A DNA stretch of 51,898 bases from Mizuhopecten yessoensis (Eukaryota). How positions within the stretch are numbered: the first letter of the stretch is position 1; every line of letters begins with the position of its first letter. The stretch spans positions 1 through 51,898 of the forward strand of contig NW_018479811.1 of NCBI RefSeq assembly GCF_002113885.1. Reading direction: 5' to 3'. Of the stretch, positions 9,001 through 12,000 are shown piece after piece. The position numbers are program-made.

Positions 9001-12000
9001 CAACATTTCCAATTTATACTTGATCCTCGGTTTCTACACGAAGAGTATCCATTGTCCAGAAGGATATATTTCATCAGGAAGTGCTAGCTAACATTTTGTG
9101 ATTAATATCAAGAGAGGATTACTCACATACCGTAGGAAACTAATCTCCCTCGACATGTTTGATCCCAAGTCCCCGGATCGTAGTGACTGGGATTCCAAAA
9201 GTACTCTAATACTCCAAGATAGTCCACCTCCTGTTCCACCAAGAAAGAAAATTGATCCGAAGTCCCCGGATCGTAGTGACTGGGATTACAAGGGTACTCT
9301 AATATTCCCAGATATTCCACCTCTAGTTCCACCAAAAAAGAAAATAACCAATCAAGTAACGATTCGAGACGTTCTGTATGAAGAGGATGTATTAAAGTGC
9401 AGGTATGTAAATGCTGATAAAATGTATAAGGATCGGCATTCATTTTGACGGCGCATGCCGTTACCTTGTAGTTTGAGTATATTCTGACTCAGTTTAAATG
9501 AAACACTACTTTGAGTTCCAATATACGTTGTTACCAATAAGGTGTAAATTGATAACGGGATTATATAGGCACCTTTCCCTTTCAGCTGTATTCTTCCTTT
9601 GTTTTGGAACACTTTAGACAAACACGTTTAATTCCTTTGGCTGAAAGTCCCAATACCAATGGTGTTTTTCTAGATTGGCAATGTCTGTAAGTAAAAAATG
9701 TGTTCTGTGTTCCCGTTTCTGTATCGCCTTTATATTATTTTTAACAGGCCCTGCCTTGCTACGTGTATTTAGTGATTCTTATACATGTATCTGAAGGATA
9801 TTCGATCGTTAAACAAAAACAACAACAATTTAATGACTGGAAATAAACAACAACTTAAACCCACCATATATGAAATATAATTCTTTAAGAAATTACAAAA
9901 TGGTAGTATACAAAGGGTGGGGTTGGGTAGGGGTTGGAGGGAAAGTTTAAAACTCTTCATTCACTGTCTGCCAACTCAAGCAATAGCAATGGTGTATCGC
10001 GTGACTGACATTGAGAAGACTACTTCGGTTTAAAAAAAAAAAAACGTTTTCTATTTTAGTTTTAATTAATAAAAAATAATGCTTTGTTCCGTGTGATATC
10101 ACCATGAGTGTGATAATAAATTGTATTGTATTGATTATTATATCTTTCATACATTTCAGTCGGGCAGGCCAAACCAATGCACAAAGAGTTTCGATCGATC
10201 TTATTACATTTGAGGACGAGCTAGAAGCTGGAGAATCGACACCAATCAGTTCCAAATGTTCCGAAAACTCGAGGAAATTGGATAGTAGAAATCCGGAACT
10301 TTTTCAGTCGATAAATGTCGCCAAGTCAGAAAAGAAACAAATCCAAGATACATCGAGCCGTGAATCATTCATGATAAATCTTGATATGTTTTTCAAAGAT
10401 GATTTGTTCAAATCCCCTTTTAATGCCGTCGATTCAGAGAGTAAAAATGTTCAGCAACCCTCTGAATTTTTCACCTTTTCACCTAAGGAAGGAACCTTGC
10501 AACATGTGAGTGACGATGCTGCCATGAATCCATTTACTTCAGTGACAGATGGTTTGATCTGGAATCCATTTAATCCAGCTACTTCTGAGGACGAGAGTGG
10601 CTATTTGGTACCCAAATCATCACAACAGTATGAAAGAGCTGCTTTTAATTCCGGAAACAACACACAATCAAGAGTGTCTGAACCGAGGAAATGGTCATCG
10701 AGTAATCCTTTTCAAAAGGAGAATTTTGCGTTTGAATTACAATTTCCTGACGACAACAAAATTGAAACACTCAACCCAAAAGCGTTCGAAAGCTGTCTAC
10801 TGNAACAATTTGGTCCATGGGAATATGATGACGTCATTTCATACAAAGGAAATTCTGGGCGACACGTGAGAGATGAATTGGTCTTGAATCCATTTGTTCC
10901 AGCTACTTCTGAAAACGAACAGACGAAAGAGACAAATGCATGTCAATATTCCATCGGTGGTGTTTTCGATTATTCAAGAATGCGTGAACATCAATAACGT
11001 AAACATAATGAAGACGAGAGTGGCTATTTCGTACCCAAATCATCACAACAGTATGAAAGAACTGCTTTTAATTCCGGAAACAACACACAATCAAGAGAAA
11101 AACACCAAAGAAAGGAGCTTTCAGACAACGAGGAAGACGACTACATACGGATGGGACCTGCAAGAAATACCGAGTTTTCCTGCGAGTACAAATCACACCA
11201 GAATAAAGTCGACGAAAACCAGCGACGCCATCAAAAAGCTGATTTAAAATCTGACACCGTCGAAAATACAGGAATATCCGACACCTGCCGTCGAAGTCTA
11301 TTGTCCCAACGTTCGCTTAGTGACAGCGCTATATATAAGGGAGTCGATGTTGACGACAACAAGACGCGAACCTGTGGGAAGTACGAGCACAGTGAAAGAA
11401 AGCAAGTGAAAACATCTTCAAGCAAAGATAACATTGAATGTAAAGCAAAAAGAAGCCTTTGGTCTCGAATAGCTAAATGTATTGTAAAAAACTCCAAACA
11501 AACATCTACAGAACATTTAAATTGGCAAACGAAGCTCGTTTGTGCATGTGGGGGTTCATGTGAACGAATAGACAGTTTGGCGTTATCATCAGATGGACAC
11601 ATATGGGTGTCGTTCCTCCACTGTTCCTGGGTATCAGTGTATGTCCACGAATACATTCCCGTTCGTAAGTTTGACGCTGGATGCATAGTTGACTGTCCAG
11701 CTGTATCCCCGGCTGGTGTGCTTTACATCTCTTGTCCAATGAAGAAGCAGATTCTGATGCTCTCCAAAAACCTCGAGGTATGTGATTATATCAGTTTATT
11801 CTACTTAGATACATTTGAATGTGCTTGTGATTACCATTAGATGTTTACAGTTTCATTGCTATGGCGCTTTATACCACTTATAGATTTACTAAACATCCAA
11901 ATGACTATGAATGTAATATTAAAGATATTTAATATTCAAAATTACAATGAAAAGGTTCATAATGTATATTATCTCACAAATATCCTAAAATACTAATTAA

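What the first reader, a model, noticed from the sequence alone, without database searches (positions are those of the whole stretch)
9155..11777. Gene B disordered arm looks like an endocytic plus phosphotyrosine signalling hub
Seen in sequence: four NPF motifs (10527, 10563, 10704, 10887), clathrin-box-like DLITFED (LITFE at 10200-10214), and two PPxVPP(R/K)KK. Acid-preceded tyrosines are EDESGYLVP (10602), EYDDV (10824), DYSRM (10971), EDESGYFVP (11025) and EEDDYIRM (11142). Established knowledge: NPF binds EH domains, L-phi-x-phi-D/E binds clathrin, pYxxM binds PI3K p85 SH2, pYDxV binds Nck SH2, pYxxP binds Crk-type SH2, and PxxPxR binds SH3. Inference: this density on an NHL propeller protein resembles IRS/Gab/epsin-like adaptor logic, which I do not recognise in NHL proteins.
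Basis: partly seen in the sequence, partly recalled or inferred. Interest (0 to 1): 0.7.

Follow-up and report, generated by a model that had tools for sequence, protein, structure and literature searches.

The report
Scallop NHL propeller protein with NPF-rich arm
A scallop-only protein joins an NHL-type propeller to a floppy arm whose repeated NPF docking motifs are kept in three scallop species, which points to vesicle-traffic machinery, but this copy carries a stop codon between arm and propeller.

Summary
The window is a whole 51,898-bp scaffold of the Yesso scallop Mizuhopecten yessoensis, not human. It holds six tandem paralogues; gene B is the second.

The endocytic half of the reading holds up:
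- NPF occurs 4 times against 0.07 expected, reached by 0 of 20,000 shuffles. With duplicate copies removed it is 3, reached by 4 of 20,000.
- The two full-length relatives found, from Pecten maximus and Argopecten irradians, carry 4 and 6 NPFs. IDLI[TI]FEDE is invariant and a PPPxP(P/x)RK site is kept.
- NPF is the top tripeptide shared by the three arms and is absent from 7 of 7 other family arms.
- The C-terminus folds as an NHL-type six-bladed propeller and the arm is predicted disordered.

The phosphotyrosine half is weak. Tyr148 and Tyr328 stay invariant, but their SH2-type contexts are kept in one relative each. Two of the five sites are recent duplicates or inserts.

As assembled, arm and propeller are separate reading frames. 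The public model (398 aa) starts at the M of YIRM and contains none of the motifs. No binding was tested.

The parts
9155..9402 (+). Gene B exon 1. It starts at an ATG and ends at the donor AG|GTATGT, with two bases of a split codon completed by T at 10160.
   Evidence: Sequence read; splice context printed. It aligns to the N-termini of P0003, P0004, P0009 and gene A exon 1 around the proline-rich site.
9159..9344 (+). Tandem duplication of a 93-nt unit (9159-9251 and 9252-9344, 89% identical), giving two PPxVPP(R/K)KK sites.
   Evidence: family D1. The relatives have a single site.
9224..9250 (+). PPPVPPRKK, an SH3-ligand-like PxxPx[RK] site in the recent first copy.
9317..9343 (+). PPLVPPKKK, the copy that aligns with PPPPLPRK, PPPPPPRK and PPPLPPRK in relatives and paralogues.
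   Evidence: invariant P55, P56, P60, K62 across 5 sequences.
10160..11777 (+). Gene B exon 2: disordered arm plus the first blades of the propeller. It runs from acceptor ...TTTCAG| to donor GAG|GTATGT.
   Evidence: The public model P0002 uses the same donor.
10194..10220 (+). IDLITFEDE, containing the clathrin-box-like LITFE.
   Evidence: Invariant I12 D13 L14 I15 F17 E18 D19 E20 in the three B-type proteins. A-type paralogues have NLMTFPNDNED at the same place.
10380..10412 (+). LDMFFKDDLFK, a motif conserved across the family that includes a D[LI][LF]-type DLF.
   Evidence: invariant L74, F78, D81, L82. The D(L/I)(L/F) clathrin motifs are described in PMC4194041 (passages read).
10527..10535 (+). 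NPF 1 (MNPFTSV).
   Evidence: N123 P124 F125 are invariant in the 3 B-type proteins.
10563..10571 (+). NPF 2 (WNPFNPA), followed by EDESGYLVP (Tyr at 10602).
   Evidence: N135 P136 F137 and Y148 are invariant.
10704..10712 (+). NPF 3 (SNPFQKENFAF).
   Evidence: P183, F184, E187 and F191 are invariant. The first residue is Asn in Argopecten and Ser in Pecten. BLASTP pairs it with GNPFLRDDAFDF of P0004.
10803..10803 (+). Single unread base (N). The codon 10803-10805 cannot be read.
   Evidence: Left as it is.
10824..10835 (+). YDDV.
   Evidence: It is collinear with EIYDDIV in P0004. P0003 contains no YDx[VI]. Pairing with IYHDTV of P0003 is my reading by eye; neither alignment made it.
10866..11097 (+). 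Lineage-specific second copy of the NPF-to-YxVP unit (10866-10918 and 11009-11097). It is interrupted by 90 nt (10919-11008) carrying DYSRM (Tyr at 10971).
   Evidence: families D2 and D3. It holds NPF 4 (10887) and EDESGYFVP (Tyr at 11025).
10995..10997 (+). In-frame TAA stop inside exon 2.
11142..11153 (+). YIRM. Its ATG (11151-11153) is the start codon of the public 398-aa model.
   Evidence: Y328 and P333 are invariant; P0003 has YITM and P0004 has YVQI.
11304..11327 (+). SQRSLSDS, a Ser-rich basophilic-kinase-like motif shared with the A-type paralogues.
   Evidence: It is absent from P0004.
11520..11777 (+). First part of the propeller, opening with the conserved CxCxxxC.
   Evidence: P0002 residues 124-209 have pLDDT 85-94. 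Invariant Cys in all 8 family proteins.
13393..13962 (+). Gene B exon 3: the rest of the propeller, plus the TGA stop.
   Evidence: Pfam NHL 17.3 bits, below the cut-off of 20. Fold match to NHL domains.

Best explanation
Gene B is the Mizuhopecten yessoensis copy of a subfamily known so far only from scallops, seen in three genera. I call it B-type. It belongs to a small, uncharacterised, tandemly duplicated gene family.

Architecture, as shown by the tools. The intact relatives have 880-890 residues. About 610-620 N-terminal residues are disordered, with no signal peptide or membrane span. About 270 C-terminal residues form a six-bladed NHL-type beta-propeller.

The arm keeps a fixed order of short motifs while the sequence between them drifts:
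- PPPxP(P/x)[RK]K
- IDLI[TI]FEDE
- LxxxFxxDL[FL]
- three to six NPFs, made and remade by tandem duplication of an 'NPF ... Y-L/F-x-P-K' unit
- a Tyr in YDD[VI]
- a Tyr in Y[IV]x[MI][GS]P
- SQRSLSDS, kept in gene B and Pecten only

Mechanism, inferred. The arm is a multivalent ligand for EH-domain proteins of the Eps15, intersectin or REPS type. A single clathrin-terminal-domain-type site and one SH3 site assist it. Together they bring whatever the propeller binds into the endocytic or vesicle-sorting network, or into its condensates. This is the logic of a cargo-selective endocytic adaptor, with an NHL propeller as the selective module. Tyrosine phosphorylation may tune it but is not the core.

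State in this assembly, shown. A TAA at 10995-10997, inside a species-specific insert, separates most of the arm from the propeller. The scaffold therefore encodes at most two pieces:
- an arm-only product of about 361 residues, which should be prone to nonsense-mediated decay;
- the propeller-only 398-residue public model.
I cannot tell whether the stop is a true allele or an assembly fault.
For: Identity of the locus and its relatives:
- P0002 is 100% identical to exon 2 from residue 331 onward. Its source names it LOC110441284 of M. yessoensis, on a contig of 51,898 bp.
- The full-length relatives are P0003 (Pecten maximus LOC117317859, 890 aa) and P0004 (Argopecten irradians, 880 aa).

Conservation of the motifs:
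- In the alignment of exon 2 with P0003 and P0004, these are invariant: IDLI.FEDE, L74/F78/D81/L82, NPF at 123-125, 135-137 and 243-245, PF at 183-184, Y148, Y328 and P333.
- The proline site is invariant at four positions across 5 sequences.
- NPF counts are 4, 4 and 6, each reached by 0 of 20,000 shuffles.
- NPF is the highest-ranked tripeptide shared by the three arms; the next is EDE at 3, 1, 2.
- 0 NPF in 7 of 7 other family arms.

Disorder, fold and location:
- P0003 residues 1-617 have pLDDT below 50 and no secondary structure; residues 618-890 are confident strands.
- P0002 residues 124-398 have pLDDT 85-94.
- The best PDB fold matches are the NHL domains of TRIM2, Thin, TRIM3 and Brat, with E about 1e-12 and target TM 0.65-0.73.
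- Pfam NHL scores above its cut-off in paralogues A and D.
- No 19-residue window is hydrophobic enough for a membrane span. The maximum Kyte-Doolittle mean is 1.58, always inside propeller strands.

Established knowledge:
- EH domains bind NPF in disordered regions, multiple copies act together, and raising valency lets even suboptimal NPFs bind EPS15 (PMC12808100, passages read).
- D(L/I)(L/F) and clathrin-box motifs bind the clathrin terminal domain (PMC4194041, passages read).
Against: - No binding, expression or localisation datum exists for any family member.
- The comparison rests on only two full-length relatives, one of them labelled LOW QUALITY PROTEIN by its source.
- NPF repeats within each species arise by tandem duplication, so the counts are not independent events. 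Only three sites are positionally shared.
- No AP2-appendage motif (DP[FW], FxDxF) is in any of the three arms, and there is no lipid- or cargo-binding ENTH, ANTH or PTB domain. Typical endocytic adaptors have both.
- The LITFE site alone is not above chance in gene B (597 of 4,000 shuffles). The A-type paralogues have Pro or Ser where the clathrin-box consensus needs an acidic residue.
- Residues after the NPFs are mostly hydrophobic or neutral, not the acidic run preferred by C-terminal EH domains of EHD proteins (PMC3769341, passages read).
- NPF has receptors other than EH domains (PMC12808100).
- In this assembly the reading frame is broken (TAA at 10995), one codon is unread, and the public model leaves out the whole arm.
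Confidence: 0.5

Rival explanations
1. In M. yessoensis gene B is a recently disabled or truncated copy. The stop is real, the arm is a relic no longer translated together with the propeller, and only a propeller-only protein (or nothing) is made. On this reading the motifs tell us about the ancestor and the relatives, not about this genome.
For: - TAA at 10995-10997 lies in frame, within a 90-nt stretch that interrupts a repeat copy.
- The public model starts downstream at 11151 and is not marked as corrected.
- Two other paralogues on the scaffold also have in-frame stops inside homologous coding sequence: gene E at 39614 and gene F exon 1 at 47380. That fits a family shedding copies.
Against: - There is only one stop in 539 codons of exon 2.
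- Exons 1 and 3 are open and their splice sites are intact with matching phases.
- All conserved arm motifs and the invariant propeller residues are still present, and the propeller models with high confidence. Any loss is therefore very recent.
- Single unread bases at 10803, 41927 and 43187 and a 716-N gap on a short unplaced scaffold make a consensus error or one heterozygous allele equally possible.
Confidence: 0.35
2. The NPF units are real conserved motifs, but their receptor is not an EH domain. Candidates are another NPF reader (SEC23/24, a POLE2-like site, others), a scallop-specific partner that reads the whole 'NPF ... YLxPK' unit, or the protein's own propeller, giving self-association or autoinhibition.
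For: - Several unrelated NPF receptors are documented, and consensus-based assignment is cautioned against (PMC12808100, passages read).
- The repeated unit is longer than NPF: NPF plus a Y-[LF]-x-P-K six to nine residues later, in gene B and Argopecten.
- AP2 motifs and the usual adaptor domains are missing.
Against: - The multiplicity of 4-6 copies in a disordered arm is the pattern described for EH partners.
- The neighbouring conserved IDLI[TI]FEDE and DL[FL] sites match clathrin-binding consensus forms.
- Pecten keeps NPF but not the YLxPK part, so NPF is the constrained core.
Confidence: 0.2
3. One reading: the arm is an IRS/Gab-like phosphotyrosine docking platform, with pYxxM for PI3K p85, pYDxV for Nck and pYxxP for Crk.
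For: - Tyr148 and Tyr328 are invariant in an arm that is otherwise about 25% identical.
- YDD[VI] is shared with Argopecten and Y[I]xM with Pecten. Argopecten has five YLxP.
- YxxM occurs 2 times against 0.15 expected (34 of 4,000 shuffles).
- The SH2 preferences themselves are recalled textbook knowledge and were not checked in a call.
Against: - Each SH2-type context is kept in only one of the two relatives.
- DYSRM has no counterpart elsewhere and sits in the insert next to the stop. EDESGYFVP is a 97% nucleotide copy.
- YxxP, YDxV and acid-preceded Tyr are not above chance.
- There is no PH or PTB membrane- or receptor-targeting domain.
- Nothing shows that these tyrosines are phosphorylated.
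Confidence: 0.15
4. The motif density is a chance product of composition and internal duplication, with no function.
For: - Two of the four NPFs and both YxVP sites are linked by recent duplications.
- The single-copy motifs are not above chance.
Against: - After removal of the duplicates, NPF is still 3 against 0.09 expected (4 of 20,000 shuffles).
- An unbiased ranking of all tripeptides puts NPF first in three species, and three NPF positions are invariant in alignment.
Confidence: 0.03

Closest known systems
Multi-NPF endocytic accessory and adaptor proteins (epsin, Dab2, Numb, stonin 2, synaptojanin-170, yeast AP180; list recalled, with Dab2, SYNJ1 and yAP180 named)
   Same: A folded module is attached to a long disordered region carrying several NPFs, a clathrin-box-like site and a D[LI][LF] site. 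The motifs are kept while the linker drifts, and copy number changes by duplication.
   Different: The folded module is a C-terminal NHL propeller, not an N-terminal ENTH, ANTH or PTB domain. There is no DP[FW] or FxDxF AP2 motif and no sequence homology. The family is known only from scallops.
TRIM-NHL proteins (TRIM2, TRIM3, TRIM71/LIN-41, Brat, Mei-P26, Thin)
   Same: They are the best structural matches of the C-terminal domain: six-bladed NHL propeller, E about 1e-12, target TM 0.65-0.73. The profile search gives a weak match to TRIM2 NHL, E 0.006.
   Different: No RING, B-box, coiled-coil or filamin domain was found in gene B's exons. Identity in the propeller is 12-18%. The N-terminus is a disordered motif arm instead.
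IRS/Gab/Dok-type docking proteins
   Same: A long disordered region with acid-preceded tyrosines, including YxxM and YxxP forms, and a proline-rich SH3 site.
   Different: There is no PH or PTB domain. Only one conserved YxxM, and that in one of the two relatives. Most Tyr motifs are not above chance or are recent copies.
A-type paralogues on the same scaffold (genes A, D, E, F; P0006, P0007, P0008, P0009)
   Same: Same three-exon layout and propeller, and the same PPPLPPRKP, [DN]L[IM][ST]F-acidic, LDxxFxxD[LIM]F and SQRS[LV]S[DE]S motifs.
   Different: They have no NPF at all (0 in 7 arms), no acidic fifth residue in the LMTF site, and an extra YLxKLRELExE helix-like segment. The first 278 residues of gene B exon 2 have no detectable similarity to them.

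Membership tests
NHL-repeat beta-propeller (Pfam PF01436; fold of the TRIM-NHL domains) | NHL repeat profile match at or above the curated cut-off | tested here: inconclusive
   Gene B exon 3 scores 17.3 bits against a cut-off of 20. Paralogue A scores 22.9 and D scores 27.3, both above it. The family profile against PDB gives TRIM2 NHL at E 0.006.
NHL-repeat beta-propeller (Pfam PF01436; fold of the TRIM-NHL domains) | Six-bladed propeller of about 270 residues that superposes on solved NHL domains | tested here: met
   AlphaFold2 model of P0002 residues 124-398 has pLDDT 85-94. Top Foldseek PDB hits are the Thin, TRIM2, Brat and TRIM3 NHL domains, E 8.5e-13 to 1.6e-11, target TM 0.67-0.73. 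The Pecten relative gives the same result. Both are predicted models built from an 8-sequence alignment.
TRIM-NHL proteins | N-terminal RING, B-box and coiled-coil (tripartite motif) | tested here: not met
   No Pfam family in exon 1 or in the first part of exon 2. The second part gives only a sub-threshold zinc-finger hit at 13.9 bits against a cut-off of 26. The arm is modelled without secondary structure.
EH-domain ligands / endocytic accessory proteins | Several NPF motifs in a disordered, cytosolic region, conserved in relatives | tested here: met
   No membrane span or signal-like stretch.
EH-domain ligands / endocytic accessory proteins | Clathrin-terminal-domain motif (L-phi-x-phi-[DE] or D[LI][LF]) | tested here: met
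   LITFE or LIIFE within the invariant IDLI.FEDE, and DLF or DLL within the conserved LxxxFxxDL[FL]. This is a match to a consensus only.
EH-domain ligands / endocytic accessory proteins | AP2 appendage motifs (DP[FW], FxDxF) | tested here: not met
   None in the three B-type arms. This feature is common in the class but not obligatory.
EH-domain ligands / endocytic accessory proteins | Physical, NPF-dependent binding to an EH domain; location at coated pits or endosomes | not testable with these tools
Not run.
IRS/Gab-type docking proteins | N-terminal PH and/or PTB domain | tested here: not met
   No Pfam match in gene B exons 1 and 2. The P0003 arm is fully disordered in the model.
IRS/Gab-type docking proteins | Multiple conserved, phosphorylated YxxM or YxxP sites | tested here: inconclusive
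   The tyrosines at 148 and 328 are invariant, but the +3 residue is kept in one relative each. The other sites are recent copies or an insert. Phosphorylation cannot be tested here.

The most novel reading that the evidence does not exclude
Scallops evolved a new class of endocytic adaptor. An NHL propeller, elsewhere known as an RNA- or protein-binding module of TRIM-NHL regulators, is wired to the EH-domain and clathrin network by a rapidly duplicating NPF arm. The neighbouring A-type paralogues keep the same propeller without NPFs. A tandem gene array would then have diversified one binding module between a trafficking-coupled form and uncoupled forms. In M. yessoensis the coupled form is caught in the act of being split into an arm-only and a propeller-only gene product.
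Probability: 0.2. Interest if true: 0.6.

Novelty: new variant of a known kind. Interest (0 to 1): 0.42.

Why it matters
If the arm really docks on EH-domain proteins and clathrin, this is a new pairing: an NHL propeller acting as the selective end of an endocytic adaptor. NHL propellers are otherwise studied mainly in TRIM-NHL regulators of RNA and ubiquitin.

The family also shows short-motif evolution unusually clearly. The same motifs are held in order across three scallop genera while the linker drifts and the motif-bearing units multiply by tandem duplication. Sister paralogues in the same array lack the NPFs.

The practical value is more modest. The public annotation of this locus omits the whole arm because of one stop codon, so anyone working from that model would miss the feature. 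The family is restricted to scallops and nothing has been tested at the bench, so the wider impact is limited for now.

Tried and rejected
- Search with the motif-rich part of exon 2 (window 10161-10994) among longer proteins found nothing among 958 candidates. The tool itself calls this weak evidence. The exhaustive search found the relatives.
- Atlas look-alike search on the P0003 arm gave no usable feature hit. The structure rows had TM 0.11-0.18, which is meaningless for a disordered region.
- A short intron that could skip the TAA: by eye, I saw no GT...AG pair with plausible signals and length around 10919-11008. Rejected. No splice predictor was available.
- The other reading frame open across the stop (10888-11247) has no similarity to any relative. 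Frameshift repair rejected.
- A signal peptide or membrane anchor, which would put the arm outside the cytosol and void the motif logic: none found.
- Complex prediction was not used, because no eukaryotic EH, SH2, SH3 or clathrin sequence could be supplied under its rules.
- Genome contigs (bacteria and archaea only) was not scanned, as it is irrelevant to an animal gene. Scallop genomic DNA, reads and transcripts of other species could not be reached, so no codon-level selection test and no check of the stop were possible.
- The joined (spliced) protein of gene B was never built. Each exon was searched on its own, and the public spliced model P0002 was used only as returned by the search.
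- Supplementary files of papers were not needed and not opened.
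Full report
**What the window is.** The 51,898-base window is a complete small scaffold of the Yesso scallop, Mizuhopecten yessoensis. A public protein, P0002, is 100% identical to part of gene B. Its source names it 'uncharacterized protein LOC110441284 [Mizuhopecten yessoensis]', and it sits on a contig of exactly 51,898 bases. It is not human.

The scaffold carries six tandem paralogues on the + strand:
- gene A, 37-5211
- gene B, 9155-13962
- gene C, about 17706-20555
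- gene D, 24408-31884
- gene E, 37095-42976
- gene F, 47149 to the scaffold end

A C1q-domain gene lies on the - strand at 15652-16146 (Pfam C1q, E 1e-20).

**Gene model of B.**
- Exon 1 is 9155-9402. It begins with ATG and ends at the donor AG|GTATGT.
- Exon 2 is 10160-11777. Its first base completes the split codon, and the phases match.
- Exon 3 is 13393-13959, followed by TGA.
- The public model uses the same exon 2 donor and exon 3 acceptor.
- I searched each exon on its own and did not build the joined protein. The public spliced model was used only as the search returned it.

Against residue shuffles:

| Motif | Observed | Mean of shuffles | Shuffles reaching observed |
|---|---|---|---|
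| NPF | 4 | 0.073 | 0 of 20,000 |
| NPF, duplicate copies removed | 3 | 0.092 | 4 of 20,000 |
| PxxPx[RK] | 5 | 0.47 | 0 of 4,000 |
| PxxPx[RK], duplicate copies removed | 3 | 0.21 | 4 of 4,000 |
| YxxM | 2 | 0.15 | 34 of 4,000 |
| Clathrin box | 1 | 0.16 | 597 of 4,000 |
| YDxV | 1 | 0.054 | 212 of 4,000 |
| YxxP | 2 | 0.78 | 715 of 4,000 |
| Acid-preceded Tyr | 8 | 5.5 | 571 of 4,000 |

The YxxM figure is not corrected for the number of motifs tried. The last four rows are within chance.

- A 93-nt tandem copy at 89% identity doubles the PPxVPP site.
- An 89-nt copy at 97% doubles EDESGY[LF]VP.
- A 53-nt copy at 83% doubles NPFxPATSE.

Exon 2 has an in-frame TAA at 10995-10997 and one unread base at 10803.
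- The stop lies in a 90-nt stretch (10919-11008) that interrupts the second repeat copy. That stretch also holds DYSRM.
- As assembled, translation from the ATG at 9155 would end after about 361 residues. That product carries the proline sites, LITFE and all four NPFs, but no propeller.
- The public 398-residue model starts at the ATG that encodes the M of 'YIRM' (11151). It contains none of the listed motifs.

**Relatives.** I ran an exhaustive HMMER search of 1.84 billion representative proteins. The query was exon 2 read through with X at the break. It found 8 proteins at E up to 0.001.
- Three of the 8 are encoded by this scaffold: P0002, P0005 and P0006.
- Two are full-length relatives of gene B:
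  - P0003, 890 aa, 40% identity, LOC117317859 of Pecten maximus.
  - P0004, 880 aa, 33% identity, an Argopecten irradians protein labelled LOW QUALITY by its source.
- The remaining three resemble the A-type paralogues. Two of them carry Pecten and Argopecten names. P0008 is unnamed.
- Every named family member is from a scallop.
- The query did not include most of the propeller, so remote propeller relatives outside scallops were not looked for.

**Conservation of the motifs.** In the three-way alignment the arm is poorly conserved overall, at 28-37% identity including the propeller blades. These residues are invariant:
- I12 D13 L14 I15 F17 E18 D19 E20, that is IDLI[TI]FEDE
- L74 F78 D81 L82, that is LxxxFxxDL
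- N123-P124-F125 and N135-P136-F137
- P183-F184, where the residue before is Asn in two sequences and Ser in Pecten
- N243-P244-F245
- Y148, Y328 and P333

The fourth NPF of gene B is a recent copy of the second. Its alignment to NPFLR of the relatives may therefore not be orthology. BLASTP instead pairs gene B's third NPF and YDDV collinearly with GNPFLRDD and IYDDIV of Argopecten.

The second proline site aligns with PPPPLPRK, PPPPPPRK and PPPLPPRK in the relatives and in gene A, with four invariant positions in 5 sequences.

An unbiased ranking of all tripeptides, by their minimum count in the three arms, puts NPF first at 4, 4 and 6. The next is EDE at 3, 1 and 2. Each NPF count was reached by 0 of 20,000 shuffles. 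The seven other family arms examined have no NPF: P0005-P0009, the first 300 residues of gene C exon 2, and gene D exon 2.

**The tyrosine motifs fare less well.**
- YLVP: the Tyr is invariant. Argopecten has five YLxP, but the Pecten units read FSTP, YSTV and HSTL.
- YDDV: kept as YDDI in Argopecten. Pecten has no YDx[VI]. By eye its counterpart would be IYHDTV, but neither the three-way alignment nor BLASTP paired the two.
- YIRM: YITM in Pecten and YVQI in Argopecten.
- DYSRM: no counterpart, and it lies next to the stop.
- YFVP: a 97% nucleotide copy.

**Structure and topology.**
- AlphaFold2 on the Pecten protein, with the 8-sequence family alignment, gives pLDDT below 50 and no secondary structure for residues 1-617. 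Residues 618-890 form a confident all-beta domain.
- The M. yessoensis public model gives pLDDT 85-94 for residues 124-398.
- Foldseek against the PDB puts the NHL domains of Thin, TRIM2, TRIM3 and Brat on top for both models, with E about 1e-12 and target TM 0.65-0.73.
- Sequence evidence for NHL is marginal for gene B (Pfam 17.3 bits against a cut-off of 20). It is above the cut-off in genes A and D. The family profile against the PDB is weak, with TRIM2 NHL at E 0.006.
- No hydrophobic stretch fit for a signal peptide or membrane span exists in any of the eight proteins. A cytosolic or nuclear location, which the motif logic needs, is therefore plausible.
- Pfam finds no RING, B-box, PH, PTB, ENTH or ANTH domain in gene B's exons.
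- No DP[FW] or FxDxF AP2 motif occurs in the three arms.

**Family-wide motifs.** Gene B shares a scaffold of motifs with the A-type paralogues:
- the proline site
- [DN]L[IM][ST]F followed by acidic residues
- LDxxFxxD[LIM]F[KRQ]S
- SQRS[LV]S[DE]S
- an invariant CxCxxxC at the entry to the propeller

The NPF units, and the acidic fifth residue that turns LMTF into a clathrin-box match, are specific to the B-type.

**Interpretation.**

Shown:
- A B-type subfamily of NHL-propeller proteins exists and is known so far only from scallops.
- Its disordered arm keeps several NPFs, an IDLI[TI]FEDE site, a DL[FL] site and a PxxPx[RK] site across three genera.

Inferred from established knowledge:
- EH domains bind NPF in disordered partners, and valency drives binding to EPS15 (PMC12808100, passages read; PMC3769341, passages read).
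- Clathrin-box and D(L/I)(L/F) motifs bind the clathrin terminal domain (PMC4194041, passages read).
- On that basis the arm most likely docks the propeller, and whatever the propeller binds, onto the EH-domain and clathrin network.
- The residues after the NPFs are I, L, R, T, N, Q or V rather than an acidic run. By the passage in PMC3769341, that argues against EHD-type EH domains as the preferred readers.
- My recollection, not checked in a call, is that [ST]NPF[LR] suits Eps15-type EH domains, and that PPPVPPRKK closely resembles the Sos1 ligand of the Grb2 SH3 domain.

The same paper warns that NPF has non-EH receptors. That is the main mechanistic rival.

**Status in this genome.** The single stop could be one of three things:
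- a real, very recent disabling change;
- one allele of a heterozygous site;
- a consensus error on a short scaffold that also has three single unread bases and a 716-N gap.

In favour of real decay, paralogues E and F also carry in-frame stops inside homologous coding sequence, at 39614 and 47380. Against long-standing decay, the rest of gene B is intact: 539 codons of exon 2 hold one stop, the splice sites and phases are correct, and all conserved residues are present. I could not reach reads, transcripts or other scallop DNA, so this stays open.

**Novelty and literature.**
- Full-text searches for the two locus names returned 0 papers.
- 'NPF motif' + 'NHL' + 'EH domain' returned one paper, in which NHL is only part of 'NHLBI'.
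- 'scallop' + 'NHL repeat' returned three papers, none of which looks related by title and abstract start.
- Within that library, I therefore found no description of this family or of an NHL protein with an NPF arm.
- I rate it a new variant of a known kind: a multi-NPF endocytic-type adaptor built on an unusual folded module.

**Verdict.**
- The endocytic and SH3 reading is supported by conservation.
- The phosphotyrosine-hub reading is weak.
- The copy in this window is interrupted.
- Interest is moderate. It is a clean and testable case of motif evolution and a new domain pairing, but it is confined to scallops and rests on no experiment.

Noticed in passing
window 15652-16146, minus strand: A C1q-domain gene (Pfam C1q, E 1e-20, full-length domain match) sits between genes B and C, in opposite orientation to the array.
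   Followed up: partly
window 38816-42976 (gene E): Gene E has an in-frame stop at 39614-39616 inside sequence homologous to gene A exon 2. Its exon 2 also holds a 716-N gap (39952-40667). It has two copies of the last exon (41590-41943, cut short with an N at 41927, and 42395-42976). It looks broken or mis-assembled.
   Followed up: partly
window 47149-47485 (gene F exon 1): An in-frame stop at 47380 lies after the PPPRPPRKP site, and the match to gene A shifts frame by one base near 47428. The public model of gene F (P0005) starts only in exon 2.
   Followed up: partly
window 10380-10412 and 11304-11327; also genes A, D, E, F: Two motifs are conserved across the whole family and have no assigned partner: LDxxFxxD[LIM]F[KRQ]S and SQRS[LV]S[DE]S. 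The second looks like a basophilic-kinase or 14-3-3-type site, which is my recollection and was not tested.
   Followed up: no
window 11541-11561; all 8 family proteins: An invariant CxCxxxC opens the propeller, together with another invariant Cys-x-Trp and Cys-Pro. This may be a metal site or a disulphide cluster, which is unusual for NHL domains.
   Followed up: no
P0003 residues 14-50; P0004 residues about 155-260; window 9159-9344: Each species has expanded a different unit of the arm by tandem duplication: three DMFCRAIQEDND in Pecten, several NATNPFIREDQxYLxPKESS in Argopecten, and two 31-residue proline-site units in Mizuhopecten.
   Followed up: partly
window 17706-20555 (gene C): Gene C is a divergent paralogue, about 25% identical in the propeller, with an extra Ser/Cys-rich insertion of roughly 45 residues in its last exon. 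It has an acidic arm without NPF or the family proline site in the exon examined.
   Followed up: no
genes A, D, F exon 2 (for example window 2150-2260): A-type arms carry a heptad-like YLxKLRELEQEVNQ[IL]EQLQKD segment. At the matching place gene B has a weakly predicted helix (P0002 residues 13-30, low pLDDT).
   Followed up: no
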